64,000 nt of DNA, from positions 3,691 through 67,690 of the forward strand of contig CAWJKE010000009.1 of the NCBI GenBank assembly GCA_963843455.1, written 5' to 3'. Source of the DNA: an uncultured Actinomycetota bacterium. GTDB lineage: Bacteria > Actinomycetota > Thermoleophilia > RBG-16-64-13. Below, piece after piece: positions 26,778-61,928 of this stretch (the stretch's first letter is position 1; each line of letters starts with the position of its first letter). Below the pieces are notes generated by a model. The model ran no database searches and was not told the DNA's origin. It was given only the letters and a program-made list of their open reading frames with translations. The position numbers and the translations under genes are program-made.

Positions 26778-27146
26778 TTGGTCAGTCCGACTATCGACCT
26801 GGTCATCCAGTTCGGTCTCATGTTCGCAATTGGCGCCGCGATGGCGGTCGCGTTTGTGTTCATATCCCACTTGCTTTCTCCCAAAAGCAGGAATCCCAAC
26901 AAGGGCCGAGCTTACGAATGCGGCGTAGAACCCAAAGCCGATGCCCGGGCGCCCCTCAACGTCCATTACTATCTGGTGGCCGTGCTCTTCGTGCTGTTCG
27001 ACCTCGAAGCCGTCTTCATCTACCCCTGGGCGGTGTCGCTGCGCTCTCTCGGGACGGGCGCCCTGGTGGAGATGTTCGTGTTCATAGCCATTCTCCTCGT
27101 CGGCTACTTCTACGCGTGGAAGAAGGGCGTGTTCGAATGGGAATAA
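26778..27146 (+). CDS. nuoA: Complex I subunit A
   Basis: [30 protein letters not shown]; TTG after AAGGAG. Confidence 0.92.
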
Positions 27147-28414
27147 GCGAAGGGCGTCCTTTCCTCACAGTGCGGGACGGCCTTCTGCAGCCGGCGCTCG
27201 AAGAGGTCATACGGCCGGGCGGGCGACTCCTGCTGCCGGGGCAGGAGCCGGCGGACGAGCCGCTCGGCGGCGGTCCCGTCCTGTTCCCGGGCGGCATAGC
27301 CATGCCGGTGCAGGTAGAGCGCGTCCTCGGCTTCGGCCGTAGCTTCTCCTTTTGGCCTCTACTGTTCGGGCTCGCCTGCTGCGCCATCGAGATGATGGCT
27401 CTGGGCGGCTCGCGCTTCGACATGTCTCGGTTCGGGATGGAGGCCATGCGCGCCTCGCCGCGCCAAGCCGATGGCATGATCGTCGCCGGCTGGTGCAGCA
27501 CCAAGATGGCTCCCCGGGTGGTGCGCCTCTACGAGCAGATCCCCGACCCCAAGTGGGTGCTGGCCATGGGATCCTGCGCCATCTCGGGGAACATCTGGGA
27601 CACCTACAGCGTGGTACAGGGGGTCGACAGCCTCATCCCGGTGGACGTCTACGTGCCCGGCTGCCCGCCCCGCCCCGAAGCTCTATGGCAGGGGCTGGAG
27701 ATGATCCGGGAGCGCATCAAGCAAAGCCGGCACGCCTACGACGGGCTGCGGCGCATCCCCGCCCGAGATCTCTTGGCGGCGAGCGCCGGCGAAGGACTCT
27801 GCCCGCCGGACGCCTATTCGGCGCCCACATCGATCGCCGGGCCCGGGCGTGGAGGAGACGGTATGACACCGGGCGAGGACGGACCTCAGGTGCTGTCTGA
27901 GTCCCAGGCGTTGCCTGCATCCCTGTCGGCCGCGGCAGACGCACTGGGCTCGACATTCGGGGAGCGGATCGTCGAGCGTACCGAGTTCCGGGGCGATCTG
28001 ACGCTCGGCGTCGACCCCGCGGCCTGGCTTGACGTGCTCACCTTCTGCCGGGACGATCCCTCCGCGGCCTTCGACCAACTGGACTGCCTGCTGGGCGACC
28101 ATCTGCCCGAACGGGTCGACGCACCCTTCGCCGTCGTGGCCCATCTGCTCTCGCACACCCACGGCCACCGTCTGCGGGTGAAGACCGCGCTCACCGAGGG
28201 ACAGGCGCTGCCGACGGTCACGGGGTTGTGGCCGTCCGCGGACTTCGACGAGCGGGAGACCTGGGAGATGTTCGGTATCGTCTTTGCAGGTCATCCCAAT
28301 CTGCGCCGGCTTCTGACCACCGAAGACTTCGAAGGCTTCCCGTTGCGCAAGGACTTCCCCCTCAAGGGGACCGTGGGCGGGCGCGTCCGCACCGACCTGC
28401 GGGGCAAGATCTGA
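27137..28414 (+). CDS. nuoBC: Complex I subunits B and C in a single ORF (NuoC region begins at ATG 27863)
   Basis: [31 protein letters not shown]; then [26 protein letters not shown]. Confidence 0.9.
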
Positions 28415-29733
28415 TGACCGACCAGTCTCACGACCCCATTCCGGCGCACGACGCCGGCCAGGGCGGCCACGGGGCGCACCCGGAGGCGGTCTCTGTCGCG
28501 GCCGCTCGCCCCACCCAGGAGGATCTGGCGGCGCGCAAGGCCCGGACGCGCCAGCATCGCGAGCACACCGGCGACATCATGACCATCAGCATGGGGCCGC
28601 AGCACCCGTCCATGCACGGGGTGTACCGCGCCGAACTGGACCTCGATGGTGAGGTCATCGTGGCCGTGCGCCCGGAGATCGGCAACCTCCACCGGGGCGT
28701 GGAGAAGCTCTGCGAGGAACGGAACTACCACCAGATCATCCCCCTTACCGACCGCTTGGACTATCTCAGCGCCTTCGCCATGAACCACGGGTTCTGCGAA
28801 GCGGCCGAAAAGCTCATGCAGGTGGAGGTGCCTCCGCGCGCGCAGTACATCAGGACTATCGCCAGCGAGTTGTGCCGGCTGTCCAACCACATCATGTGGC
28901 TGGGCGTCCACATCATGGACCTGGGCACGCAGACCTTCTTCGTCATCTGCTTCCGCGACCGGGAGTACGTGATGGATCTTTTCGAGATGCTCACCGGCGC
29001 CCGGCTCACCCACTCGTTCGCCCGCATCGGCGGGGTGGCGAAAGACCTGCCCGATGGCTTCGAGCACCGCTGCCGCAAGGTCATCGACTTCCTGCCTAAA
29101 CGGGTGGCGGAATACGAACGGATCATCAAGCACAACCGCATCTACTACAAGCGGGCAAAGGGCGTCGGCATCTTCACCGCCGCCGACTGCTACGCCTGGC
29201 GGGTCACCGGGCCGCCATTGCGCTCCGCGGGCGTGGCCCGGGACCTGCGCAAAGACGAGCCCTACGCGGCCTACGCCGAGGTCGACTTCGAAGTCGCGGT
29301 GGAGTACAACGCCGACGTGTACGACCGGTTCCTCGTGCGCATGAAGGAGATCCGGGAGTCGTGCAAGATCATCCGGCAGTGCCTCGACCAGATGCCGGAC
29401 GGCGATTTCATGGCCCGTGACGCACTGCACACGTTGCCGCGCAAACCGGATGTCCTCCGAGGAGCCCCGGCGATGATCCAGGATTTCAACCAGGTCTTCC
29501 GGGGGCCGCAGGCCCCCAAAGGCGAGGTCTACCGGGCTATCGAAGTGCCCAAGGGCGAGATGGGCGTCTACATCCGCTCGGAGGGCGGCCCGCGGCCCGC
29601 GCGCGTCCACTTCGCCACTCCGAGCTTCTACCACGGCCAGGCCGTTCCGCCCCTCGTTGAGGGGGAGATGATCGCCGACATGGTCGCCATCTTCGCGAGC
29701 ATCGATGTGGTGCTGGGGGACTGCGATCGATGA
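28414..29733 (+). CDS. nuoD: Complex I subunit D
   Basis: MGPQHPSMHG, HRGVEK, DRLDY, EVPKGE, SIDVVLGDCDR; no NiFe CxxC motifs. Confidence 0.93.
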   Translation: MTDQSHDPIPAHDAGQGGHGAHPEAVSVAAARPTQEDLAARKARTRQHREHTGDIMTISMGPQHPSMHGVYRAELDLDGEVIVAVRPEIGNLHRGVEKLCEERNYHQIIPLTDRLDYLSAFAMNHGFCEAAEKLMQVEVPPRAQYIRTIASELCRLSNHIMWLGVHIMDLGTQTFFVICFRDREYVMDLFEMLTGARLTHSFARIGGVAKDLPDGFEHRCRKVIDFLPKRVAEYERIIKHNRIYYKRAKGVGIFTAADCYAWRVTGPPLRSAGVARDLRKDEPYAAYAEVDFEVAVEYNADVYDRFLVRMKEIRESCKIIRQCLDQMPDGDFMARDALHTLPRKPDVLRGAPAMIQDFNQVFRGPQAPKGEVYRAIEVPKGEMGVYIRSEGGPRPARVHFATPSFYHGQAVPPLVEGEMIADMVAIFASIDVVLGDCDR

Positions 29734-38725: not shown

Positions 38726-39406
38726 TTGCTTCTCGATCGTAGACGAATCAGAAGGTGGGCGAAATGGGTCGCCCTGTTCTTGGCAGTGATCTTCGCGCTT
38801 AGTTTCCTACTCCTGGGGGTGGGCTACGGCGGAGGCGCTGGGCTCAATATCTTCGACCTCTTCGGCAATAAGAACTCCTCCACCAACACCACGCTCGGTG
38901 AGGATCAAAGGATCGCGGCGCTCAATGCCAAGCTGGCGCTGAACCCAAAGGACGTGACCACCCTTCTGGCGCTGGCCACCATCTACCAGCAGAACGATCA
39001 GTTGGGCTCGGCGGCCACTTTTTTGGAGCAGGTCATAGCGGCCGACCCCAGCCAGAAGGCGGTGTACATCCGTCTGGCCGACATATATATGAGCAACAAC
39101 CTGTCCAACTACGCAGCCGCGGTGGCCGTGCTCAACAAGGCCATATCCGTCGATCCCCAGAATCCGGATCTCTTTCTCAAGCTCGGCATCGCTCAGAACA
39201 AACTGGGCAACACCAGCGGCGCCCTGCTCGCCTGGCAGAGATACCTGGCCCTCGCCCCCAACGGTAGCCAAGCGCCCTTGATAAGGGAGCAAGTGGACAA
39301 GTTGAGCAAGCTGGCGACCACCACGACCACCACCGCGGGGTCTACCAGCACGACCACCGGGTCTACCTCCAGTACCGCGTCCACCACGACCACGACGAAG
39401 CCGTAA
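38726..39406 (+). CDS. Membrane-anchored TPR protein with Thr-rich C-tail
   Basis: N-terminal TM, TPR helices, TTTTTTAGSTSTTTGSTSSTASTTTTTKP. Confidence 0.8.
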   Translation: MLLDRRRIRRWAKWVALFLAVIFALSFLLLGVGYGGGAGLNIFDLFGNKNSSTNTTLGEDQRIAALNAKLALNPKDVTTLLALATIYQQNDQLGSAATFLEQVIAADPSQKAVYIRLADIYMSNNLSNYAAAVAVLNKAISVDPQNPDLFLKLGIAQNKLGNTSGALLAWQRYLALAPNGSQAPLIREQVDKLSKLATTTTTTAGSTSTTTGSTSSTASTTTTTKP

Positions 39407-52265: not shown

Positions 52266-52406
52266 AACGTTCGCACCGGCCGTCGATTCTCCCGGCGGCT
52301 TGCTCTTGTTAGTCAGCCCCACTAGACACAGCCACCCTTTTGTCCCATTCTGAGGGTGGTTCCCGGGGCGCAGATAGCAGGCGCGGACCCAGGAGGTCCA
52401 TGGGCG

Positions 52407-53312
52407 ATGTCAAGGATGGCTCACTCGCCGTCGTCTAGGTCCTTTCGCTCACTCCAGGTGTGGCTGGTGGTGCTCACTGCTGGGCTGGTACTTTTGATCA
52501 CACTCGGCAGCGGAAGATCGTTCGCGCGGATCTCCCCGGCCCGTCGCCTCCTGGATGTCGGCCCGGCTGTCGGAGATCTCTTTGTCCTCCTTACGGCCGT
52601 CCTCGTCGTCGAGCTCGGCCTGCTTGTCTACGTTCTCTTTTCGCGGCTTAGGCGGCGCTCCCCGGAAGACGCCGATGCAGGGAAGGAACCGAGCACCGCC
52701 TGGCAGCGACTCGTGGCCCCGCTGATACCGTTCGTGCTGATAGCGGTGCTCGTCGCCATCGTCGCCCGCAGGGGGGACGGCACGCTCACCACTCCGATGT
52801 CCCTGGCGCCGCCGGGCACTCTGTTTCCTGGTGACGGAGTGCCGGGAACAGGGGCGCCTGTGGTGGTCCACTGGTGGATCCTCGGGGGGCTGGCGCTGCT
52901 CGCGGTGGCCGTATTGCTCGTCTTCGAGGTTGCGCGACGATGGCAGCGTCGGAGAGAGGCAGAACCACGGGGCGCGTCATCTGACCGGGAGGAGCTCTTG
53001 GTGGCGATCGATGGCTCGCTGCGGGAGCTGGAGAACGATCCAGACCCGCGGCGGGCGGTCATCAATGCCTATGCTGCCATGGAGCGGGTGCTGTCAGAGC
53101 ATGGTCTGCCGCGGATGCCGTCCGAGACGCCCCTCGAGTATCTGGCCCGTTGGGCCGGTGCGCTCCATGTGGGGCGGGCGGCCGCGGAAGCCCTCGCCGT
53201 GCTCTACGAGCGCGCCCGGTTCAGCGCCCACCTCATCGACGAGGAGATGAAACAGGAAGCCAGAAGGGCGCTCGGCGCCCTTCGCCATGACCTCGGGGCG
53301 GAACCGGCATGA
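52407..53312 (+). CDS. DUF4129-domain membrane protein
   Basis: Several TMs; C-terminal AYAAME..L..HG.PR.PSETP.EY...LYERARFS. Confidence 0.75.
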   Translation: MSRMAHSPSSRSFRSLQVWLVVLTAGLVLLITLGSGRSFARISPARRLLDVGPAVGDLFVLLTAVLVVELGLLVYVLFSRLRRRSPEDADAGKEPSTAWQRLVAPLIPFVLIAVLVAIVARRGDGTLTTPMSLAPPGTLFPGDGVPGTGAPVVVHWWILGGLALLAVAVLLVFEVARRWQRRREAEPRGASSDREELLVAIDGSLRELENDPDPRRAVINAYAAMERVLSEHGLPRMPSETPLEYLARWAGALHVGRAAAEALAVLYERARFSAHLIDEEMKQEARRALGALRHDLGAEPA

Positions 53313-53815
53313 GGCTTTGGAAGGCTTCTCTGCTCACGCTGGCCGCCGCGGTAGCGGTGGTCATCGGCATCGTGCTCGCGGGCGTGGGCAGCGGCGTGGC
53401 CTTGCTCGCCTACGTTCTGTTCATCGCAGCGCTGCTGTTCGCCTGGCTCCTCGGTCGGCTTGGCAACGTACTACCCCCAGCTCGGGACTTCCAGCGCCTG
53501 CTGGGCAGAGCCGACCGGCCGGAGATGCCGGTGGAGCAATTCGAGACGATAAGACGGTTGGTCCTTCTTGCGGGGTCCAGCCGGTCGGATCTGCTGCGGC
53601 TGCGGCCCCTGGTCCGCGACATCGTCGGGGCTCGTCTGTCGAGGCGGTACGGCGTCGATCTGGAACGGGAGCCGGAGCGAGCCGGATCACTGTTGGGGGG
53701 GGGCCGCGTCTGGGAGCTCGTCCGGCCGGACTATACGACACCGGGCGACCGCGACGCCCCCGGGTGGTCGCCCGGTGAACTGGCACAACTGGTCGACGAA
53801 TTGGAGAGTCTCTGA
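53309..53815 (+). CDS. Conserved hypothetical membrane protein of the MoxR operon
   Basis: 2 N-terminal TMs; ATGA-coupled to upstream gene. Confidence 0.6.
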   Translation: MRLWKASLLTLAAAVAVVIGIVLAGVGSGVALLAYVLFIAALLFAWLLGRLGNVLPPARDFQRLLGRADRPEMPVEQFETIRRLVLLAGSSRSDLLRLRPLVRDIVGARLSRRYGVDLEREPERAGSLLGGGRVWELVRPDYTTPGDRDAPGWSPGELAQLVDELESL

Positions 53816-54810
53816 TGGAAGACCGACCGACTCACGATCTCACGTTCGAGCAGGTCGCCTCGCTGGGAGCGGCGGTCTTGCAGGAGGTCGAGCGAGCCGT
53901 GGTGGGCAAGCGGGACGTTCTCGAACTGGTCCTTGTCGGGCTCCTCGCCGATGGGCACGTGTTGATCGAGGACCTCCCGGGTCTGGCCAAGACGCTTATC
54001 GCCCGCTCCTTCGCGCAGGCGACCTCCCTGACCTTTCGCCGCATCCAGTTCACCCCCGACCTCATGCCTTCGGACGTGACCGGCGCTTCCATCTACAGCC
54101 AGAAGCGGGGCGAATTCGAGTTTCATCCGGGCCCCGTGTTTGCCAACCTGCTCCTCGCCGACGAGATCAACCGCGCACCGGCCAAGACGCAGGCGGCCCT
54201 CCTCGAGGCGATGCAGGAGCGGCAGGTGACAGCAGAGGGCATCACCCGCCGCTTAGAGCAACCCTTCCTCGTGCTTGCCACTCAGAACCCAATCGAATAC
54301 GAGGGCACTTACCCGTTGCCGGAAGCGCAGTTGGATCGTTTCTTGCTGCGCATCTCGGTCGGCTATCCGGGCCGCGATGATGAGGCCCTCGTGCTCGCAA
54401 GGCGCGGCGAGCGTCAGCAAGAAAGCATGGATCTCCGGCCCGTGGTGGATGTAGACACCATGCTTGCGATGCAGCGCGCCGTCGAGCGCGTGCACGTGTC
54501 GGAGAGCATCCGCCTGTACATGGTCGATATCGTGCGGGCGACGCGGGAGAACGGGCGCGTTCAGGTGGGATCGAGCCCTCGCGGGTCGCTTGCCCTGTAC
54601 ACGTTGGCCCGAGCTCGCGCCGTGCTGGGGGGGCGCGATTTCGTCACGCCGGAAGACGTCAAGGACATCGCACCGCCGGCCCTGGTTCACCGACTCACCC
54701 TGCGGCCCGAGATCTGGGTGCAGAGGGTGCCGACTGAGGACATCATCAGAGAAGTCCTGAGCACCGTTCCCACCCCGCCGGTGAGGGACGCCGAACCTGG
54801 ACGAGCGTGA
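53815..54810 (+). CDS. moxR: MoxR-family AAA+ ATPase
   Basis: HVLIEDLPGLAKT, RIQFTPDLMPSD, LADEINRAP.KTQ.ALLEAM, ATQNPIEYEGTYPLPEAQLDRF. Confidence 0.95.
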   Translation: MEDRPTHDLTFEQVASLGAAVLQEVERAVVGKRDVLELVLVGLLADGHVLIEDLPGLAKTLIARSFAQATSLTFRRIQFTPDLMPSDVTGASIYSQKRGEFEFHPGPVFANLLLADEINRAPAKTQAALLEAMQERQVTAEGITRRLEQPFLVLATQNPIEYEGTYPLPEAQLDRFLLRISVGYPGRDDEALVLARRGERQQESMDLRPVVDVDTMLAMQRAVERVHVSESIRLYMVDIVRATRENGRVQVGSSPRGSLALYTLARARAVLGGRDFVTPEDVKDIAPPALVHRLTLRPEIWVQRVPTEDIIREVLSTVPTPPVRDAEPGRA

Positions 54811-56093
54811 GGCGCTCGCCGAAACTCGTTCTCTACGCGGCCCTTGCCGCGACGTTCTTTCTCCTGGCGCTGGTGCTCGGCCGGCCGGAACTGGTTGCTC
54901 TCGGCGCACCGTTCGCGCTCGTCCTGATCGTAGGTCTGTCGCTGCCGCGGCCGGGAGTTGTAGAAGTATCGCTCGAGGTCGTGGCCGAGCGGGTCCTCGA
55001 GGGCGACGAGATTGAGGCGGAGTTGTCGGTCCGTCCGATCGAGCCCGCAGGAGCGACAGCACACGTCCCGGTCCTCTACTTGGGTCTCTCGCTTCCCCAG
55101 GGCTTGAGGACCGCCGTCGGAGAAACCACCCTTGTGCTGGCTCTCCAGGCGGGAGAAGAGCGCCGGATCCCCCTCCGGTTTGTGGCCGACCGCTGGGGAG
55201 GCTACCGGTTGGGCGACGTGGTCTGGCGGACGAGTGACGTCGCCGGCCTGGTCTCCAGGGACGGATCTTCCCGGGGCACCTCGCCGCTCCAGGTCTATCC
55301 CCGGACCGAGCGCCTTCGCGCTCTTCTGGCCCCCCTGGAGGCCCAGCCATTCGCCGGCAATCGGGTGGCCCGCGCCAGGGGAGAAGGGATCGAGTTCGCC
55401 GAGACGCGGCCCTACGTCCCTGGTGACCGTCCTCGCCGGGTCAACTGGCGGGCCACCTCGGTACGCCAGACTCTGTTCGTGAACGAGCAGCATCCGGAGC
55501 GGAACAGCGACGTGGTCATCTTCGTGGACACCTCTGCCGAAGCGAGGCGCGGGGACGAGGGCTCGCTCGACCTCGCCGTGCGCGCTGCCGCCACTCTTGC
55601 CGAACACTACCTCTCCACCCGCGACCGCGTGGGGTTCGTGAGCTTTGGCGCCATGGTACGGTGGCTCACTCCCGGCTCGGGTGACGTCCAGCGCTACCGC
55701 ATCATCGAGACGCTGCTCGCCTCCGAGATAGCCTTCTCCTTCGCCTGGAGGGACATCGACACTCTGCCCGCTCGCAGCCTGACCCCTCACGCGCTGATCA
55801 TCGCCATCACTCCACTGCTTGACGAGCGAGGTGTAGCCGCGCTGCTCGACCTCCGTCGCAGGGGGTTCGATCTGGTTGTCGTCGAGATCTCTCCTCTGGC
55901 CTTCGCCCCGGACGGTCGGAACTCGCTGGATGCGGTTGCCGCAAGGCTATGGCGTCTTTGGAGAGGCACCGTCCGCTTCCGGTTCGAAGAGTTGGGCGTT
56001 GCCGTGGTCGAGTGGGATGGGCAGGTTCCGCTGGCTGCCGCGCTAGAGGAGGTGAGATCATTCCGCCGGTCCGCGCGCCACGCCTTCGGATAG
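54807..56093 (+). CDS. DUF58 (VWA-like) protein
   Basis: EF.ETRPY.PGD..R.VNWRAT, degenerate MIDAS FVDTS, DRVG. Confidence 0.88.
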   Translation: MRRSPKLVLYAALAATFFLLALVLGRPELVALGAPFALVLIVGLSLPRPGVVEVSLEVVAERVLEGDEIEAELSVRPIEPAGATAHVPVLYLGLSLPQGLRTAVGETTLVLALQAGEERRIPLRFVADRWGGYRLGDVVWRTSDVAGLVSRDGSSRGTSPLQVYPRTERLRALLAPLEAQPFAGNRVARARGEGIEFAETRPYVPGDRPRRVNWRATSVRQTLFVNEQHPERNSDVVIFVDTSAEARRGDEGSLDLAVRAAATLAEHYLSTRDRVGFVSFGAMVRWLTPGSGDVQRYRIIETLLASEIAFSFAWRDIDTLPARSLTPHALIIAITPLLDERGVAALLDLRRRGFDLVVVEISPLAFAPDGRNSLDAVAARLWRLWRGTVRFRFEELGVAVVEWDGQVPLAAALEEVRSFRRSARHAFG

Positions 56094-56614
56094 GGCTGGG
56101 GACAGGTGCTGCGGTCCTCGCCGCCGCCCTGGCCGGTTACCCCCTCGCCTATGCCGGTGAGCTGACTCCGCCCGTGGCGCTGCTCGCCGGACTCGGGCTA
56201 CTCTTCGTGATACCGGCAGTGGTCTTTCGGTCTCGGTCCGCAACTGCTGCCGGTCTGTTCTTGCTGGCGGCCGAGTACGTGCTGGTAGAGGTGACCGATC
56301 GAGTCGCGATCCTGTCGATAGCCGGCTACGCCGCCGGCCTGGTGATCCTTGCCGAACTTCTGCTCTGGTCGGCAAGCCTTCCATCCCCGAGCCGGGTGGA
56401 CCTATCGGTGATCACCCGATGGTTATGGGGTGTGACACTGATAGCCGTGGCCGCCGCGGCGCTCGCGATCATGGTCTTGGCCGTCGCCGACCTCCGCATC
56501 CCCGGGGGCCCCACCGGCACCATCGCCGGTGCGACCGCAGCGGCGATGGTGCTCGCCCTTCCCTGGCTCCTGCTCAGACGAAGGCTTGCCCGAAGCGCTC
56601 CCAGGAATAACTGA
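55949..56614 (+). CDS. Hypothetical multi-TM membrane protein (start uncertain)
   Basis: About 5-6 hydrophobic segments; last gene of the MoxR operon. Confidence 0.55.
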   Translation: MASLERHRPLPVRRVGRCRGRVGWAGSAGCRARGGEIIPPVRAPRLRIGLGTGAAVLAAALAGYPLAYAGELTPPVALLAGLGLLFVIPAVVFRSRSATAAGLFLLAAEYVLVEVTDRVAILSIAGYAAGLVILAELLLWSASLPSPSRVDLSVITRWLWGVTLIAVAAAALAIMVLAVADLRIPGGPTGTIAGATAAAMVLALPWLLLRRRLARSAPRNN

Positions 56615-56637: not shown

Positions 56638-57763
56638 CTAGAAGGGCGTTACCTGCGCCGTCGTGACGATGCCCACGTAGAAGTACTGGGTGACGTTGCC
56701 GGCTGAGTCGGCGTACGCGAGCGCCAGTTGCGTGCTCACGTTGGCTCTGAGGACATCAAACGTCCAGGTGTAGATGCCCGGGGCTCCCGTCTTTGGCCCG
56801 GCCACCGGCGTAAAGACCGGGTCGCCGCTCCTGGGCCTGAGAACGGCGGTATCGATCTTCTTGATAGTCCAGTTGTACGGCGTCGAGGAGTCTCCGCCCA
56901 GCGTCAGCACTACCTGCGCACCTGCTGTCGCGTAGACCACGCTCCCATTGTTGCGCTCGTCCAAATAGGTGTTGCTAGGCACCTGCGTCGTTGGTGGGCG
57001 AGGGATGTACGACGTACTTGTGGTGGGCGGGAGGGTCGGCTTGGTCGTGGTCGTTGTGGGAGGTTGCGTCGTCGTCGTGGTGGGACGCTGCAGTGGTGGT
57101 CGTTGGCTTGGCGGTAGTCGTGGTTGCCGCGGCCGTGGTTGTGGTGGTGGGCGCCGCGGTAGTCGTGGTTGTCGGTGCTGCCGTGGTTGTGGTAGGCGCC
57201 GCCGTGGTCGTGGTGGTCGCCTCGGTCGTGGTCGTGGTAGTCGCTTCGGTGGAAGTGGTCGTCTCCGCCTCTGTGGTCGTAGTCGAAGAAGTAGGCGTGC
57301 TCGAGACCACCTGGATAGTCACCTTGAACGACTTCTCCGATTTCCCCTGCGGGCTCACGTATTCTGCCGATACAGCCGTCTCTCCCAGAGCGAGGGCGAT
57401 GCCTGCGAAGGTGTACACGCCGGGGGTGTCGCCCTCATCCGGAGTGATTTGAGGGCCGGGAAGACCCTTGACCACCTCCGGATCCGGCGGAAACACGTCC
57501 CACTGGTAGCCCTGGCTTGGGTACCCGGGCAGTTCCAGGATGAGCAGATATCCGGGAGAAACGACGACGGTCTTTCCGTTCGACGTCTCGGTAAGTCTGA
57601 CCACTTCGGTCCCGGGCGGGATCTGCCCTATGGAGGTGGTCGTGGTGGCCGTCTCCTCGCCCTGGCACGAAGCCAGGTATATGACGACTATCACCAGGAT
57701 GACGACGACCGCTATGAGGGCAATCGCGATCCAGTTGATCTTGCGACCCTTGGTTGCTGCCAC
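56638..57763 (-). CDS. Putative lipoprotein with two chagasin/I42-like domains and a Thr-rich linker; frameshifted near 57086
   Basis: Lipobox LASC; LELPGYPSQGYQW; after the shift PSNTYLDERNNG..LGGDSSTPYNW..GAPG.Y.W.F; joins ORFs 56975..57763 and 56638..56982. Confidence 0.75.
57020..57300 (-). repeat. Mucin-like (A/P)TTTT coding linker, gene 1
   Basis: Repeated AAPTTTT(T) units with synonymous codon variation. Confidence 0.9.
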
Positions 57764-57835
57764 GGTGGCCTCCCCGTCTTTCGCCCAGGTTCACTTCACG
57801 TGCGATTGAAATCCATTATAGAGATAAACATGGAG

Positions 57836-57878
57836 ACAAAGAAAAGCGGCGGGGGCTCGGATCACGAGCCCCCGCCGC
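57836..57878 (-). terminator. Intrinsic terminator of the upstream I42 paralog
   Basis: Minus strand GCGGCGGGGGCTCG-tgatc-CGAGCCCCCGCCGC-TTTTCTTTG. Confidence 0.85.
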
Positions 57879-57906
57879 GCAGGCGTCGGCTATGCCGTCA
57901 CCGCTA

Positions 57907-59043
57907 CTACGGGGTGATGGGTGCGGTGCTTGTGACTATGCCCACGTAGAAGTACTGGTCGATGTTGCCGGCAGCGTCGACATACGCGAGGGCCAGCGAA
58001 GTACTGACGTCGGCCTGCAGCACGTCGAAGGTCCAGACATAGACACCCGGTGCCCCTGTCTTTGCTCCTGTAGTCGGGGTAAACACGGGATCGCCGGCCG
58101 ACCTGAGGACTGCTGTGTCGATCTTCTTAATCTGCCAGAGGAAACCGCTCGACTGGTCGCCACCCAGGCTGAGCACTATCTTGCCGCCCGCTGTAGCGTC
58201 GACCACATCGCCGTTGTTTCGCTCATCCAGGTAGGTGTTCCCGGGCACGGGCTCTACCGGAGGCCTTTCGATGAAGGACGTGCTGGTTGTCGGCGGCAGC
58301 GTCACCGTGGTCGTGGTGGGCTTCTGGGTCGTCGTGGTGGTCGGAGGCTTCGTCGTCGTGGTCGTCGGCGCCGCCGTTGTCGTGGTCGCGGCTCCCGTTG
58401 TGGTGGTCGCCGCAGCCGTCGTGGTAGTTGTGGGTGCCGCGGTGGTGGTTGTGGGTGCCGCGGTGGTCGTGGTCGTCGCCGCGGTGGTGGTTGTCGTGGT
58501 CGCCGCAGTCGTGGTGGTCGTCACCTCGATCGTGGTAGTAGTCTCCTCGCCGGTCGTCGTAGACGATGTCGGACTACTCGAGACCACCTCGAATGTGCAT
58601 GTGAACGACCTCTCGACTTGTCCCCTGCGGTCTACGTAATCCGCCGAGAACGCGGTCGTGCCCACCCTGAGGGCCAGGGCGGTGAAGGTGTAGGTTCCCT
58701 GCAGGTTCGCCTGGTCGAAGACCACCCGGGGGCCGGGCAGCGCCCGTACGATCATCGGGTCCGGCGGGAGCACGTCCCAGTGATTCTGCAGGCTTGGCCG
58801 CCCGCTGAGTTCGAGTTGGATCAGGAACCCGGGCGAAACGAGCACCACTTTCCCATTCGACAGTTCGTTTATCTTCACCACCTGCAGGTTTTGCCCGAGT
58901 TGCCTCTCGGTGGTGGTCGTTGTTCCCTTGCTGCCGCTGCAGCCCGCCGCAAAGATGGTGACGCCTGCCACGGCGGCTATGGCGAGTGTCAAGACCGCCA
59001 TCCGGCCCCGTCCGTATCTCCGTCGTCCTCGCTTATCAGACAC
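57907..59043 (-). CDS. Putative lipoprotein with two chagasin/I42-like domains and a Thr-rich linker (intact paralog)
   Basis: Lipobox FAAGC; LELSGRPSLQNHW; NTYLDERNNG..LGGDQSSGFLW..GAPG.Y.W.F; GTG 59043 after GGAGG. Confidence 0.8.
   Translation of the reverse strand: MSDKRGRRRYGRGRMAVLTLAIAAVAGVTIFAAGCSGSKGTTTTTERQLGQNLQVVKINELSNGKVVLVSPGFLIQLELSGRPSLQNHWDVLPPDPMIVRALPGPRVVFDQANLQGTYTFTALALRVGTTAFSADYVDRRGQVERSFTCTFEVVSSSPTSSTTTGEETTTTIEVTTTTTAATTTTTTAATTTTTAAPTTTTAAPTTTTTAAATTTTGAATTTTAAPTTTTTKPPTTTTTQKPTTTTVTLPPTTSTSFIERPPVEPVPGNTYLDERNNGDVVDATAGGKIVLSLGGDQSSGFLWQIKKIDTAVLRSAGDPVFTPTTGAKTGAPGVYVWTFDVLQADVSTSLALAYVDAAGNIDQYFYVGIVTSTAPITP
58280..58570 (-). repeat. Mucin-like (A/P)TTTT coding linker, gene 2
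   Basis: TTTTAATTTTTTAATTTTTAAPTTTTAAPTTTTT...KPPTTTTTQKPTTTT. Confidence 0.9.
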
Positions 59044-59157
59044 GATGCCCTCCTCCATGAATTTCGCGCCCATATACATCACATCGGTGGAAACTGACTT
59101 ATGGAATAGAGTCTTCTGGCTGGTTCGCTTCAATCCTGCGCGCGCCGGTGGTCCAAG

Positions 59158-59299
59158 AGGGGAGCCGCGGCGGTTGGCGTCGGCGTCTCATCAGCACTTG
59201 ACTCCCCCGATGGAGTGGGGGAACATGGCCGAAATACCGGTCGGACCAGGGGTCTCTGCCGCTGTACACACTGGTTGCTCGGGGTCCCGTGGCTCCTCT
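59158..59299 (+). ncRNA. Candidate structured RNA or leader of unknown class
   Basis: 13-bp closing helix 59158-59170/59287-59299 with two G-U pairs (favours + strand) enclosing several hairpins; ends about 35 nt before the GTPase start. Confidence 0.4.
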
Positions 59300-59333
59300 G
59301 CCCCCGTTGATCTACGTTCCCGGAGGGCACTCG

Positions 59334-59960
59334 ATGCGCCTACTCTTGTTCGCCGGCTTTCTCGGTTCGGGGAAGACTACTCTCATACTTGCGCTTGCCA
59401 AGCGTGCCGCGCTGGAGCGCTTACGCGTCTGCGTGTTGGTCAACGAGGTCGGAGAGGTGGGGATAGATGGCGAGGTGTTGCGCCTGGGTGACATGGAGGT
59501 CGTCGAGATAACCGGTGGCTGCATATGCTGCCAGATAGGCGTGGACCTCGTGCGGGCGTTGCGCGATCTGGAGCGGGACTTCGAGCCCGACCTGGTGATA
59601 GTCGAGGCCAGCGGCATCGCCACGCCGCAGGGAGTACTCGATTCGATCGGCCGCTATCCTCCCGCGACGTTGACCTCCGTCCAGACGGTCACCGTGGTCG
59701 ACCCCGTACGCTTTGAGGCTCTCCACGAGGTGCTCACGCCGCTGATCGAAGGCCAGATAGCCGGCGCCGACTACCTGGTGATCACCAAAGCGGACGAGGC
59801 GGCAGCCGGCGAAGTCGAGGCCGCCGTGCGCGTCGCCGGCGGACTCGCGCCGGCGGTGCCCGTGTTTGTCACGGACGCCAGGCGTGAAGAGACGCTTGAC
59901 GGATTCCTGGCCTCGCTTGGCCTGCCCGCAAAAGCGGCGGGCGCGGAGGCGGGGCAGTGA
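59334..59960 (+). CDS. CobW/HypB/UreG (G3E) GTPase, GTPase domain only
   Basis: GFLGSGKTT, NEVGEVGIDG, GGCICC, EASG, TKAD; no CobW_C domain. Confidence 0.88.
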   Translation: MRLLLFAGFLGSGKTTLILALAKRAALERLRVCVLVNEVGEVGIDGEVLRLGDMEVVEITGGCICCQIGVDLVRALRDLERDFEPDLVIVEASGIATPQGVLDSIGRYPPATLTSVQTVTVVDPVRFEALHEVLTPLIEGQIAGADYLVITKADEAAAGEVEAAVRVAGGLAPAVPVFVTDARREETLDGFLASLGLPAKAAGAEAGQ

Positions 59961-60464
59961 GTGGGGGCCGGCCGAGCGTCCCGGCTGACGGTTTCGGCGG
60001 CGACATCCCGTGCTCGGCCTCCGGCCTTCTGGAGCCGTACGGCACCCGGATCACGATCCAGCCCACTTCGCAGAACCTCGATCCGGAGCAGTTCCTCGTC
60101 ACGCTTCTGGAGGATCTCGCGGCTGGGTGCCTTGCCTCCGGGGCCTCCGTGATCGGTCATCTCAAGTGCCTGTTCCACATGCCTGGCAGCGTGCTGGTCT
60201 GCAATCTGACGTCGATGCGGTCCGGGGCGACATGTACCGGCCAAATGCAGAGCTCGGGAGGCACGCTCGCCGCTGGTTCCGGGCGAAGGCGCGTGCCTGG
60301 CTCTGACCGTTCTGGTGTACGGCCTGCCGGCCGCAAGGATCGACACGCTGCTCCGCGAAAGTCTCGGCCGGCTGTTGGACCCGCGAGGCGTGACTTGGTC
60401 GCTTCGCCCCGCTCTGCGAACCGCAGGCCAAAACTCCATAGGCGCCGGACGACGCGTGGCTTGA
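59957..60464 (+). CDS. Cys/His-containing hypothetical partner of the G3E GTPase; probable frameshift about 60240-60295
   Basis: GC..SGA.VIGHLKC..CNLTS, then LALTVLVYGLP..IDTLLRE..stop 60464 in another frame; GTGA overlap with the GTPase. Confidence 0.55.
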
Positions 60465-60520
60465 CCGCTCCGCTACTGCGCCGGTGCGGTCGGCCAAAGA
60501 TCATGGCGCGGGCGGTCGTT

Positions 60521-60559
60521 TTGGCAAAAGCAGCACAGGGGCGATAGAGTGGTGAACCA
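60521..60559 (+). promoter_or_regulatory. Putative promoter with FadR-type operator upstream of the SBP gene
   Basis: TTGGCA-18nt-TAGAGT followed by TGGTGAACCA just before the RBS. Confidence 0.4.
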
Positions 60560-60572
60560 GGAGGAGGCAGTA

Positions 60573-61928
60573 ATGAAGAGAGGGTATTGGATAGCCCTGG
60601 GACTGATCCTGGTGCTCGGCCTCGGTCTGTTCGCCGCTGGGTGCGCCGGGATGGGGGAGATCACCACGACAACGGGGCCGACCACCACCGCAGGGCCCCC
60701 CGGGCCTTCCACGGACACGCCCGCCGCGCCGTCGACCGAGACGACGACGGCAGACACTACTCCGCTCAGATTCGGCATCGCGATCTCGCTCACCGGCGAA
60801 AGCGCCGCTCCGTGCGCGCAGATCAAGCAGGCCCTCGATACCGAGGCCAGGTACATCAATACCAATGGCGGGATCAACGGCCGCCAGGTCGAGATGACCT
60901 ACGTCGACGACCAGTCCAAGATGGACACGGCAGTAGCCGCCGTCCAATCTCTGGCCGACCAGAAGATGGACGTCATCATCGGCCCGTTCCCGCAATCGAC
61001 CCAGGCTCCCACCCGGCCGATCACGGAGCAGGCAGGCATTCTTCACCTGACCTTTGGCCCGCCGACCCTGGCCGAACTGAATGAGGATCACACCAAGTAC
61101 GTGTACACCTTCGCACCGGGCACCGGCCCCGACGGTTGCTCGGACGCCTTCCTCAAAGAAATGGTAGCGGATGGCAAGAAGAACGTTCTGGGCATCGGCG
61201 ATCAGATGGTCATCAGCCAGGAGACCCTGAAGGTGCTCAAAAAGAGTCTGGCCACCACGGGTGTGAAATTCACCCTCATGACCGACAGTTGGAGCCTCGG
61301 TGAGACCGACGTCACCCCGACCGCCAACAAGATCGCCGCCAAAGCCAAAGAACTGAAGGCCGACGCGATCATCCTCGCCAGCAACGCGGAGCACGTAAAT
61401 CAGATGACCAAGATCCTCAGGAGTCTCGGGGTCAAGGCGCCCGTCTACAACCAGGCGTCCGGTGCTTACCCGCTGGTCCTGCTGGCTCCTGCCGACAACG
61501 ACCCGGCCAACGTCGCCGGCGATTTCGCCTTCGGCCCGGCCATCGTCAATCCTGCCGTTATCACCGATACTTACCCCGCCAAAGCCGACCTGGTCGCTTT
61601 TGTAGAGCGGTGGAAGGCCGACAACCCGAAAGAACCGTTCGCCAGCCTCTTCTTGGGCTTCGGTTACGACACGATCCACCTGGCCGAGCAGGCCATCAAG
61701 AGTGCCGAGACGCAGGATCAGGCCGGTTGGGCCGCTGCCATGGAGAAGGTCGATTGGTGGGGTGCCCAGGGACACTACGTGTTCTCGGACGCCGACCATG
61801 TGGGCAACCACGGTGGCTTCATGCAGTGGCAGTACACAGTGGACCAGGGCTTCAAGTTCGTTCGCGACCTGAACTCGATAGCTCCCCTCGACCCAGCGAC
61901 GACCGCCGCTGTGGCGTCCCTCAAGTAA
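60573..61928 (+). CDS. ABC substrate-binding lipoprotein (LivJ-like, type 1 PBP)
   Basis: Lipobox FAAGC, Thr/Pro linker, INTNGGINGRQVE..YVDDQS, LGYDT..L..AI. Confidence 0.88.
   Translation: MKRGYWIALGLILVLGLGLFAAGCAGMGEITTTTGPTTTAGPPGPSTDTPAAPSTETTTADTTPLRFGIAISLTGESAAPCAQIKQALDTEARYINTNGGINGRQVEMTYVDDQSKMDTAVAAVQSLADQKMDVIIGPFPQSTQAPTRPITEQAGILHLTFGPPTLAELNEDHTKYVYTFAPGTGPDGCSDAFLKEMVADGKKNVLGIGDQMVISQETLKVLKKSLATTGVKFTLMTDSWSLGETDVTPTANKIAAKAKELKADAIILASNAEHVNQMTKILRSLGVKAPVYNQASGAYPLVLLAPADNDPANVAGDFAFGPAIVNPAVITDTYPAKADLVAFVERWKADNPKEPFASLFLGFGYDTIHLAEQAIKSAETQDQAGWAAAMEKVDWWGAQGHYVFSDADHVGNHGGFMQWQYTVDQGFKFVRDLNSIAPLDPATTAAVASLK

What the first reader, a model, noticed from the sequence alone, without database searches (positions are those of the whole stretch)
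56638..59043. Tandem lipoproteins each displaying two chagasin-like domains on a mucin-like stalk
Both paralogs read lipobox - I42-like domain - 90-100 aa Thr/Ala/Pro linker - second I42-like domain. The chagasin NPTTGY-W inhibitory loop is altered in all four domains (YPSQGYQW, RPSLQNHW, DSSTPYNW, DQSSGFLW). The distal domains are strongly conserved between paralogs (NTYLDERNNG, IKKIDTAVLR, KTGAPG, QYFYVGIV), while the proximal ones diverge. They are separated by a terminator, and gene 1 has its own TATAAT. This could be an undescribed surface array of cysteine-protease decoys (anti-predator or anti-phage) or repurposed Ig-like adhesins.
Basis: partly seen in the sequence, partly recalled or inferred. 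Interest (0 to 1): 0.7.

Follow-up and report, generated by a model that had tools for sequence, protein, structure and literature searches.

The report
Tandem two-domain chagasin-like membrane lipoproteins
Two neighbouring genes of an uncultured soil/wetland actinobacterium each encode a membrane-anchored protein with two chagasin-type (cysteine-protease-inhibitor) domains separated by a long threonine-rich stalk; this is an uncharacterised variant of a known inhibitor family, and one copy is interrupted here by what is probably a sequencing error.

Summary
On the minus strand lie gene A (59043..57907, 378 aa, intact) and gene B (57763..56638). Each reads signal peptide with lipobox, I42 domain, a Thr/Ala/Pro linker of about 100 aa, then a second I42 domain. 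Pfam PF09394 matches all four domains, although A-proximal alone scores below the cut-off. AlphaFold2 models of gene A place both domains in the chagasin fold. The quoted loop strings, the terminator between the genes and a TATAAT before B are all present.

It is most likely an assembly error. The adjacent cobW-like gene has two more frameshifts, related long-read MAGs break these genes at other places, and both genes are intact in a short-read Gaiellales MAG.

The genes belong to a small unnamed family of about 40 clusters from Actinomycetota MAGs. Proteins with several I42 domains are common in databases, and lipoprotein chagasins (Pseudomonas ICP/Cip1/Cpi1) are already characterised, so the architecture is a variant rather than a new kind.

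The canonical NPTTG, GxGG and RPW motifs are degenerate in all four window domains, so inhibitor activity is plausible but unproven. There is no support for an anti-phage role. Interest is modest.

The parts
57907..59043 (-). Gene A: intact CDS of 378 aa plus stop, encoding a two-I42-domain lipoprotein. The preferred start is GTG 59043, which has the Shine-Dalgarno GGAGGAGGG at 59056..59048. The gene caller's version starts at ATG 59001 (364 aa, P0159).
58939..59043 (-). Gene A signal peptide and lipobox: an Arg-rich n-region, a 17-aa hydrophobic core, then F-A-A-G-C with Cys35 at 58941..58939.
   Evidence: The neighbouring substrate-binding-protein lipoprotein (60549..) has the same FAAGC box.
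58576..58887 (-). Gene A proximal I42 domain, with L2 equivalent GRPSLQNHW.
   Evidence: Pfam 20.3 bits. AF2 pLDDT 87.8. The top 10 Foldseek hits are all I42 inhibitors, TMt 0.75-0.82. A profile of the proximal domains matches PaICP at 8.8e-7 and chagasin at 1.9e-4.
58246..58575 (-). Gene A Thr/Ala/Pro-rich linker (about 110 aa including flanks). Predicted disordered.
   Evidence: (pLDDT about 40)
57910..58245 (-). Gene A distal I42 domain, with L2 GDQSSGFLW, L4 TGAPG and L6 VDAAG.
   Evidence: Pfam 35.8 bits. AF2 pLDDT above 93. A profile of the distal domains matches PaICP 2wgn at 3.9e-12. Foldseek matches.
57836..57878 (-). Intrinsic-terminator-like hairpin (14 stem pairs, 13 G-C, loop of 5) followed by TTTTCTTTGT, lying between A and B.
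57815..57820 (-). TATAAT hexamer 52 nt upstream of gene B's start. It is a possible -10 element; no matching -35 was found.
56638..57763 (-). Gene B: paralogous two-I42-domain lipoprotein. It starts at GTG 57763 with Shine-Dalgarno GGGGAGG at 57775..57769. In this sequence it is split by a frameshift. Read through, it would be about 374 aa.
57665..57763 (-). Gene B signal peptide and lipobox (L-A-S-C, Cys33 at 57667..57665).
57299..57610 (-). Gene B proximal I42 domain, with L2 GYPSQGYQW.
   Evidence: Pfam 38.8 bits over profile positions 2-91 of 91
56980..57298 (-). Gene B Thr/Ala/Pro-rich linker, which contains the frameshift.
57082..57085 (-). Frameshift site (GCG T CCC ACC...). Removing one base restores ...TTTTAA(P/S)TTTTTQPPTTTTTKPTLPP... 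in frame with the distal domain.
   Evidence: A short-read contig from run X2 spans the site with a net +23 nt, which is frame-restoring.
56641..56979 (-). Gene B distal I42 domain, with L2 GDSSTPYNW, L4 TGAPG and L6 ADSAG.
   Evidence: Pfam 37.6 bits; 72% identical to A-distal

Best explanation
Genes A and B are a tandem-duplicated pair of envelope proteins from an uncultured Actinomycetota bacterium, related to Gaiellales and to Microflora Danica MAGs.

Shown:
- Each protein has a signal peptide with a lipobox.
- Each has two domains of the chagasin (MEROPS I42) Ig-like fold.
- The two domains are separated by a disordered Thr-rich linker of about 100 aa.
- Membrane anchoring, the two-domain order and the linker are conserved across a family of about 40 clusters.

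Inferred:
- After Sec export and lipidation, the protein is held on the outer face of the cytoplasmic membrane.
- The proximal domain sits at the membrane behind a short TTTT spacer.
- The linker is probably O-glycosylated and extended, like the Thr-rich segments of mycobacterial lipoproteins. It would carry the distal domain some tens of nm out, into or through the wall.
- Each domain acts as a tight, competitive, non-covalent binder of a clan-CA papain-like cysteine peptidase. It would wedge the loops at one end of the beta-sandwich (L2, L4, L6) into the active-site cleft, as chagasin, PaICP, Cip1 and Cpi1 do.
- This would protect envelope proteins from peptidases of other soil organisms, or restrain one of the cell's own.
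- The four domains carry four different L2 loops, and each loop type is conserved within its orthologue group. The pair therefore probably covers several targets.

The frameshift in B is most likely an assembly error and not biology.
For: Fold and family:
- Pfam I42 matches all four domains.
- The distal profile matches PaICP at 3.9e-12 and chagasin at 1e-3. The proximal profile matches PaICP at 8.8e-7 and chagasin at 1.9e-4.
- AF2 gives both domains pLDDT above 93 and the linker about 40. Foldseek top hits are EhICP2 (TMt 0.83, rmsd 1.8) and chagasin (TMt 0.80).
- For the proximal domain alone, the top 10 Foldseek hits are all I42 inhibitors.

Anchor:
- 23 of 33 aligned family members have a lipobox Cys. 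A third clade instead has an uncleaved TM helix (FFVGRAT). Tethering is thus conserved by two different means.

Loops:
- The G-x7-W spacing of L2 is kept in all four domains.
- The position equivalent to chagasin T31, which is pivotal for inhibition (PMC2607524), is Ser in all four. The family motif NP[ST][ST]G allows Ser there.
- 14 of 33 family members have a canonical distal NP[ST][STA]G together with GAPG.
- Proximal L2 is as conserved as the core within clades (0.73-0.89 against 0.71-0.73) but much less conserved between clades (0.14-0.39 against 0.37-0.55). That pattern fits a specificity loop.

Selection:
- The distal domains of A and B are 74% identical in protein, yet only 44% of codons for identical residues are the same. 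This points to purifying selection and not recent gene conversion.

Precedent:
- Pseudomonas Cip1 and Cpi1 are chagasin-like lipoproteins that inhibit papain-like proteases at nM Ki, on the cell surface (PMC5014320; 10.64898/2026.06.02.729523).

Frameshift as artefact:
- Both genes are intact in the short-read Gaiellales MAG L006.
- B is intact in L001, where A is the broken gene.
- L002 and L005 are broken at several other places.
- The window's cobW-like gene has two compensating frameshifts.
- A short-read contig from run X2 restores the frame.
Against: - None of the four window domains has the canonical motifs. L2 reads RPSLQ, YPSQG, DQSSG and DSSTP instead of NP[ST][ST]G.
- L6 RP[WF] is absent from the whole family (DPDG, DAAG, SPQG). 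W93 of that motif matters 100-fold for cathepsin L binding (PMC2607524).
- L4 GxGG appears only as GAPG in the distal domains and is absent from the proximal ones.
- Deleting the two Thr of NPTTG abolished most of Cip1's activity (PMC5014320).
- No C1 peptidase or any other conserved partner gene lies in the window or in related loci.
- Distal L2 of the B clade varies a lot (0.44 identity within the clade).
- No activity, localisation or glycosylation data exist.
- Expression evidence is a single 151-nt metatranscriptome contig.
Confidence: 0.45

Rival explanations
1. The I42 fold has been repurposed. The domains no longer inhibit peptidases and instead serve as Ig-like binding or adhesion modules, or as structural envelope modules (for example wall, polysaccharide or cell-cell contact), displayed on a glycosylated stalk.
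For: - All three inhibitory motifs are degenerate in the window's four domains, and RPW is missing family-wide.
- A third clade has DTADNLIW and STKG in the distal domain, which is far from any inhibitor consensus.
- Invariant residues are framework Gly, Trp, Leu and Phe, not loop tips.
- Extra conserved surface motifs that are not part of chagasin occur in the proximal domain (VLPPDP, LPGP).
- No protease partner lies nearby.
- Foldseek also returns adhesin-like Ig domains at weaker scores.
Against: - Many orthologues keep a canonical distal NPSTGY-W plus GAPG.
- The T31-equivalent Ser and the L2 length are retained in all four domains.
- The best structural and sequence matches are exclusively inhibitors.
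- Loop conservation within clades argues that the loops, and not only the scaffold, are under selection.
Confidence: 0.3
2. The proteins are inhibitors, but of an endogenous exported cysteine peptidase. They would act as envelope-resident safety catches, comparable to the protozoan chagasin-cruzipain relationship, and not as a shield against foreign enzymes.
For: - Protozoan I42 proteins regulate the organism's own C1 peptidases (PMC2607524, PMC2680270).
- The genes lie in a housekeeping chromosomal region.
- The family is conserved across a lineage of free-living soil and sediment bacteria with no obvious host.
Against: - No C1 or other cysteine peptidase gene lies within 64 kb here or beside any relative.
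- The neighbourhood is not conserved at all between clades.
Confidence: 0.15
3. Gene B is a genuine pseudogene, or is phase-variable or programmed-frameshifted, in this organism. Only gene A would then be functional, or expression of B's distal domain would be switched on and off.
For: - The frameshift is in the sequence as given.
- It lies in a repetitive ACC/ACG tract next to a C-run, where slippage could occur.
- The downstream 114-aa piece has its own GTG and was called as a separate gene (P0001).
Against: - The break is not conserved. Relatives break at other places or not at all.
- The neighbouring cobW-like gene carries two further compensating frameshifts, which is typical of long-read indel error.
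- The distal domain downstream of the shift is free of stops and 78% identical to L001's intact B.
- A near-identical short-read contig has a frame-restoring length.
Confidence: 0.1
4. The pair is an anti-phage or anti-predator decoy system, with surface decoys that trap phage or predator proteases.
For: The proteins are surface-displayed, duplicated and have divergent loops. This is only suggestive.
Against: - No PADLOC family matches.
- The genes do not lie in a defence island. The neighbours are MoxR/DUF58, a cobW-like gene, an ABC substrate-binding protein, nuo, topA and tatC.
- No mobile-element signatures were seen.
- The gene is single-copy, with unrelated neighbours, in other clades.
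Confidence: 0.03

Closest known systems
Pseudomonas chagasin-like lipoproteins: P. aeruginosa ICP (PDB 2wgn), P. syringae Cip1, P. putida Cpi1
   Same: - Bacterial I42 domain behind a Sec signal peptide with a lipobox.
- Membrane or surface tethering.
- Best PDB sequence match for both the distal profile (3.9e-12) and the proximal profile (8.8e-7).
- Same Ig-like fold.
   Different: - The Pseudomonas proteins have a single domain of about 130 aa and no stalk, sit in a diderm outer membrane or OMVs, and have canonical NPTTG, GxGG and RPW motifs. Their nM inhibition of papain-like proteases has been proven.
- Here there are two domains per protein, a Thr-rich linker of about 100 aa, a monoderm-type host, degenerate loops and a tandem gene pair. 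Activity is untested.
Protozoan chagasin/ICP family (T. cruzi chagasin, Leishmania ICP, Entamoeba EhICP1/2, Plasmodium ICP-C)
   Same: Same fold: TMt 0.75-0.83, rmsd 1.8-3.4 A. The three-loop wedge topology is the same. The T31-equivalent position is occupied by Ser.
   Different: The protozoan proteins are cytosolic or vesicular, mostly single-domain and not lipidated, and they regulate endogenous C1 peptidases. Sequence identity is only 13-19%. The RPW motif is absent here.
Uncharacterised multi-I42 repeat proteins in bacterial metagenomes (for example P0021 with 4 domains, P0025 with 3, P0027 with 5, P0028 with 6, and P0033, a lipoprotein with a Thr-rich spacer and 2 domains)
   Same: They have several I42 domains in one exported protein. 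Some have a lipobox and Thr-rich segments.
   Different: - Their domains are packed head-to-tail with short linkers, mostly carry canonical NPTTGY-W, GAPG/GAGG and RPW/KQWW motifs, and are close repeats of each other.
- Here the two domains are of distinct, anciently diverged types (proximal and distal) with the long stalk between them.
O-mannosylated Thr-rich lipoproteins and PT-linkers of Actinobacteria (for example the M. tuberculosis 19-kDa LpqH; own knowledge)
   Same: Both have a lipobox followed by Thr clusters, with Thr/Pro/Ala linkers in exported proteins. Other exported proteins in this window also carry poly-Thr tracts.
   Different: Glycosylation is not shown here. The linker is internal, lying between two folded domains, and is unusually long.

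Membership tests
Pfam PF09394 / MEROPS I42 (chagasin family) | Match to the family HMM above the gathering score (27.2 bits) | tested here: met
   Whole gene A scores 49.9 bits with 2 stretches, the B 5' part 35.7 and the B 3' part 37.0. Per domain: A-distal 35.8, B-proximal 38.8, B-distal 37.6. A-proximal alone scores only 20.3 bits, E 6.8e-4, which is below the cut-off.
Pfam PF09394 / MEROPS I42 (chagasin family) | Chagasin-type Ig-like beta-sandwich fold | tested here: met
   In the AF2 model of gene A both domains have pLDDT above 93. Foldseek gives EhICP2 at TMt 0.83 and chagasin at 0.80. For the proximal domain alone, the top 10 hits are all I42, TMt 0.75-0.82. Gene B was not modelled; its fold is inferred from 52-74% identity to A.
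Pfam PF09394 / MEROPS I42 (chagasin family) | L2 motif NP[ST][ST]G | tested here: not met
   The window domains read RPSLQ, YPSQG, DQSSG and DSSTP. Pro-Ser is kept in the proximal domains and Ser-Ser-Gly in A-distal. 14 of 33 family members have canonical NPSTG, NPSAG or NPATG in the distal domain.
Pfam PF09394 / MEROPS I42 (chagasin family) | L4 motif GxGG | tested here: not met
   The distal domains have TGAPG (G-x-x-G). GAPG is common in other I42 repeat proteins. The proximal domains have NLQG and DTPG.
Pfam PF09394 / MEROPS I42 (chagasin family) | L6 motif RP[WF] | tested here: not met
   The window domains read VDAAG, ADSAG, VDRRG and VSPQG. The motif is absent from all 33 aligned family members.
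Pfam PF09394 / MEROPS I42 (chagasin family) | Tight-binding inhibition of clan CA family C1 peptidases | not testable with these tools
   Needs enzyme assays.
Bacterial lipoproteins (Lgt/Lsp substrates) | Positively charged n-region, hydrophobic core, and lipobox [LVI][ASTVI][GAS]C within about 35 residues | tested here: met
   B has MAATKGRK..., an 18-aa core and L-A-S-C, which is canonical. A has an Arg-rich n-region, a 17-aa core and A-A-G-C, with Ala instead of L/V/I at -3. The same FAAGC box occurs in the adjacent substrate-binding-protein lipoprotein. No dedicated predictor was available.
Pseudomonas Cpi1/Cip1-type surface PLCP inhibitors | Single I42 domain directly behind the lipobox, with all three canonical motifs | tested here: not met
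   Here there are two domains plus a stalk, and the motifs are degenerate. This is a functional analogy only.
Mucin-like O-glycosylated linker | Long disordered Ser/Thr/Pro-rich segment; actual O-glycosylation | tested here: inconclusive
   Composition and disorder are met: a T-rich core of about 97 aa with pLDDT about 40, and the Pfam Mucin model hits a homologue faintly. Glycosylation cannot be tested here.
Known anti-phage defence systems (PADLOC-DB) | Match to any defence-system protein model | tested here: not met
   0 families matched for A and for both parts of B.

The most novel reading that the evidence does not exclude
The pair is a four-specificity, two-tier envelope shield. The proximal and distal domains are two anciently separated I42 subtypes, and their L2 loops have been re-tuled in each orthologue group. 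'Re-tuled' here means re-tuned: the proximal loops lack the inhibitor consensus yet are as conserved as the protein core. These loops would bind targets other than classical papain-like enzymes, such as other cysteine-peptidase clans or non-protease ligands. One layer would work at the membrane and the other would be held outside the wall on a glycosylated stalk. That would be a new mode of use of the chagasin scaffold in monoderm bacteria.
Probability: 0.15. Interest if true: 0.55.

Novelty: new variant of a known kind. Interest (0 to 1): 0.3.

Why it matters
Chagasin-family inhibitors are well studied in parasites and have only recently been recognised as surface lipoproteins that shape Pseudomonas-host interactions. 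Nothing is known about them in Actinomycetota or in free-living soil bacteria.

A conserved domain-stalk-domain design with clade-specific loops would suggest that monoderm soil bacteria defend their envelope proteome against extracellular cysteine peptidases at two depths. It would also offer natural loop variants for mapping I42 specificity.

On the practical side, the case shows that gene callers split these genes in long-read MAGs, because indels accumulate in the repetitive Thr-linker. The family is therefore under-counted and appears as 'stand-alone' 110-130-aa I42 proteins.

Tried and rejected
1. Recent gene conversion as the reason the distal domains of A and B are so alike. NJ trees of the proximal and distal domains are incongruent: window A's distal domain groups with B-type distal domains. 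At the DNA level, however, identity is only 69%, and only 44% of codons for identical residues are the same. Recent conversion is rejected. Older exchange or parallel change is not excluded.

2. Programmed frameshift or phase variation in B. Rejected because the break is not conserved in position or even in gene among relatives.

3. A conserved partner gene such as a protease. None was found. A cobW-like gene is adjacent in the window, L001 and L005, but not in L006. Distant clades are single-copy with unrelated neighbours. Four Pfam scans of the window's larger ORFs found no cysteine peptidase.

4. A full sigma-70 promoter for either gene. The scan found none. TATAAT alone is not significant across the window.

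5. Direct read-level proof of the frameshift. Only low-depth Logan contigs from related strains were available. One contig spans the site with a frame-restoring length, but its sequence cannot be inspected.

6. Expression. A single metatranscriptome contig covers 57904..58035 at 97% identity, which is too thin to conclude anything.

7. NCBIfam gave only spurious low-complexity hits. Source names are uninformative.

8. The first search for related loci attempt, with the diverse alignment A2, failed because it had no conserved stretch. It was repeated with the closer alignment A3.
Full report
WHAT IS THERE

The flagged interval 56638..59043 holds two minus-strand genes.

Gene A runs from 59043 to 57907 and is one open frame. 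I prefer the GTG at 59043 as its start. It lies 5 nt behind a GGAGGAGGG Shine-Dalgarno and gives the signal peptide an Arg-rich n-region, as in the homologues. The collection's gene call starts at ATG 59001 instead (P0159, 364 aa).

Gene B starts at GTG 57763, behind a GGGGAGG Shine-Dalgarno, and ends at 56638.

Between the two genes lies a terminator-like hairpin with 14 stem pairs, 13 of them G-C, followed by TTTTCTTTGT, at 57878..57846. A TATAAT sits at 57820..57815, 52 nt before B's start.

That hexamer is one of only two in the 64-kb window, but 1.46 are expected by chance. The promoter scan found no complete sigma-70 site. A promoter for B is therefore plausible but not demonstrated.

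Gene B is not a single ORF here. Frame -1 (ORF 56975..57763) runs through the proximal domain and most of the linker, then drifts into ...AASHHDDDATSHNDHDQ... and stops. The distal domain is in frame -2 (ORF 56638..56982, extendable upstream to 57087).

The switch is at GCG-T-CCC, 57082-57085. Removing one base gives ...TTTTAA(P/S)TTTTTQPPTTTTTKPTLPPTTSTSYIPRPP..., which matches the intact orthologue.

Five observations make an assembly indel the likely cause:
- In the related MAG contig L001, B is intact (389 aa) and A is the gene that is split.
- In L002 and L005, both genes are broken at several different places, even inside the domains.
- In L006, a short-read (NODE_...) Gaiellales MAG, both genes are intact at 347 and 379 aa.
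- The window's neighbouring cobW-like gene (59334..60404) goes from frame 3 to frame 2 and back to frame 3, relative to the uninterrupted 374-aa L001 orthologue.
- A 490-nt short-read contig from run X2 is 98.7% identical over 392 nt. It spans the site with a net +23 nt, a length that restores the frame.

The relatives are 'MFD...' MAGs with Flye-style contig names. To my knowledge these are Nanopore assemblies from Microflora Danica. That the window has the same origin is an inference.

DOMAINS AND FOLD

Pfam PF09394 (Inhibitor_I42) matches gene A at 49.9 bits in two stretches, and both parts of B. Scanned one by one, the domains score as follows against a cut-off of 27.2 bits:
- A-distal: 35.8 bits
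- B-proximal: 38.8 bits
- B-distal: 37.6 bits
- A-proximal: 20.3 bits (E 6.8e-4), which is below the cut-off

A profile of distal domains finds P. aeruginosa ICP (2wgn) at 3.9e-12, Leishmania ICP at 3e-4 and chagasin at 1e-3. A profile of proximal domains finds PaICP at 8.8e-7 and chagasin at 1.9e-4.

An AlphaFold2 model of gene A, built on a 33-sequence alignment, has two all-beta domains with pLDDT above 93 and a linker at about 40. Foldseek returns EhICP2 (TMt 0.83, rmsd 1.8 A) and chagasin (TMt 0.80-0.81).

The proximal domain modelled alone has pLDDT 87.8, and its ten best PDB matches are all I42 inhibitors, with TMt 0.75-0.82. The chagasin fold is therefore confirmed for both domain types. 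Gene B was not modelled, and its fold follows by homology.

THE FAMILY

Exhaustive HMMER search with gene A finds 13 cluster representatives at E<=1e-30 that share the whole architecture, and 443 at E<=1e-3. A profile search of the larger collection gives about 40 clusters of 330-390 aa. Where these are named at all, they are called 'predicted secreted protein'.

The genome scan places relatives in uncultured Actinomycetota MAGs and one Gaiellales MAG. Matching runs are wetland, soil and freshwater-sediment metagenomes.

The alignment shows three clades:

| Clade | Anchor | Proximal L2 |
|---|---|---|
| A-type | lipobox | GQPSLRYHW |
| B-type | lipobox | GYPSQGYQW |
| Third clade | uncleaved TM anchor (FFVGRAT) | GNPEDGSAW |

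Membrane tethering is therefore conserved by two different devices. The order proximal-linker-distal is invariant, and the linker varies from about 36 to 117 aa.

The tandem A+B pair occurs in the window, L001, L002, L005 and L006. The distant clades are single-copy with unrelated neighbours.

LOOPS

Chagasin inhibits through three loops that carry NPTTG (L2), GxGG (L4) and RPW/F (L6) (PMC2607524). Mutating the TT of L2 cripples both chagasin and Cip1 (PMC2607524, PMC5014320).

Mapping through the HMM alignments gives these L2 equivalents for the window:
- A-proximal: RPSLQ
- B-proximal: YPSQG
- A-distal: DQSSG
- B-distal: DSSTP

L4 is TGAPG in both distal domains and NLQG or DTPG in the proximal ones. 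L6 has no RPW in any domain.

Three points temper that conclusion:
- The G-x7-W frame of L2 is kept in all four domains, and the T31-equivalent position is Ser in all four.
- 14 of 33 family members carry a canonical NP[ST][STA]G-[YF]-x-W together with GAPG in the distal domain, including both paralogs of L006.
- Within each clade the proximal L2 is as conserved as the beta-core (0.73-0.89 against about 0.72). Between clades it is far less conserved than the core (0.14-0.39 against 0.37-0.55). That pattern fits a loop that determines specificity.

The distal L2 of the B clade is the exception, at 0.44 identity within the clade.

WHY THE DISTAL DOMAINS LOOK SO ALIKE

A and B are 74% identical in the distal domain and 52% identical in the proximal domain. 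Only 44% of codons for identical residues are the same in the distal domain, against 56% in the proximal domain, and DNA identity in the distal domain is 69%.

The similarity is therefore old and maintained at the protein level, not the result of recent gene conversion. NJ trees of the two domains are nevertheless incongruent. An older domain exchange or parallel evolution remains possible.

CONTEXT

The window is ordinary chromosome. It carries the following:
- complex I genes
- topoisomerase I
- DNA polymerase III delta'
- TatC
- phosphoketolase
- ABC and MFS transporters
- a DUF4129-MoxR-DUF58 cluster convergent on gene B
- a cobW-like GTPase and an ABC substrate-binding lipoprotein on the other side

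No cysteine peptidase was found, and PADLOC has no match. Poly-Thr tracts also occur in three other exported proteins of the window, so the 'mucin-like' composition is a habit of the lineage. The roughly 100-aa internal stalk is, however, by far the longest such tract here.

MECHANISM

Shown:
- an export signal with a lipobox
- two chagasin-fold domains
- a disordered Thr-rich spacer
- conservation of this plan across the family

Inferred:
- the lipidated protein sits on the outer face of the membrane
- the stalk is probably O-glycosylated and extended, as in actinobacterial Thr-rich lipoproteins (own knowledge), and holds the distal domain out in or beyond the wall
- each domain binds a clan-CA cysteine peptidase competitively through its loop wedge, as in PaICP, Cip1 and Cpi1

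I put this model at about 0.45. The main rival is that the fold has been repurposed as a non-inhibitory binding module, at about 0.3, because all three motifs are degenerate here and RPW is absent from the whole family.

VERDICT

The genes are a lineage-specific architectural variant of a known inhibitor family, not a new kind of system. Interest is modest.

Noticed in passing
window 59289..60547 (+): The cobW/HypB-like GTPase gene next to gene A is broken by two compensating frameshifts. It reads frame 3, then frame 2 near 59957..60200, then frame 3 again up to 60404, relative to an uninterrupted 374-aa orthologue in L001. This suggests the window carries long-read indel errors.
   Followed up: partly
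window 52356..56614 (+): A DUF4129 protein, an unknown 168-aa ORF, a MoxR AAA+ ATPase (AAA_3), a DUF58 protein and a 221-aa polytopic membrane protein form a cluster that converges on the 3' end of gene B. No transglutaminase-core domain was detected.
   Followed up: partly
window 7496..9256 (-), 38726..39406 (+), 60549..61928 (+): Other exported proteins also carry poly-Thr tracts. These are a VanW/PG_binding_4 protein with a 36-aa C-terminal T-rich tail, a TPR protein with a T/S-rich tail, and the ABC substrate-binding lipoprotein, which has the same FAAGC lipobox followed by TTTTGPTTT.... Thr-rich spacers appear to be a general feature of this organism's secretome.
   Followed up: partly
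family alignment A5; L001, L006: Trees of the proximal and distal domains disagree. The distal domains of window A, P0008 and P0165 group with B-type distal domains, and B-type P0177 groups with A-type distal domains. This hints at old domain exchange between the tandem paralogs or at parallel loop evolution.
   Followed up: partly
window 56991..57452 (+) and 58235..58639 (+): The complement of the ACC/ACG-rich linkers gives long spurious poly-Val/Gly/Arg ORFs with gene-like GC3. In related MAGs, gene callers annotated such antisense or frameshifted pieces as genes.
   Followed up: no
window 58330..58490 and 57038..57240; runs X1-X4: Short-read contigs of related strains diverge or change length inside both linkers, with skips of 79-86 nt and replaced sequence, and 25-nt and 48-nt differences. 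Together with the 36-117-aa range across the family, this indicates that linker length is polymorphic.
   Followed up: no
L002 10223..13112; L007 4781..5446; L008 1490..6435: Nitroreductase-family genes, and in two loci radical-SAM genes, lie within a few kb of family members in three otherwise unrelated neighbourhoods. This may well be coincidence.
   Followed up: no
window 26918..29733 (+): In the complex I region, one 498-aa ORF carries both the NuoB (Oxidored_q6) and NuoC (30 kDa) domains and overlaps the NuoD ORF by about 190 nt. This could be a real fusion or further frame errors.
   Followed up: no
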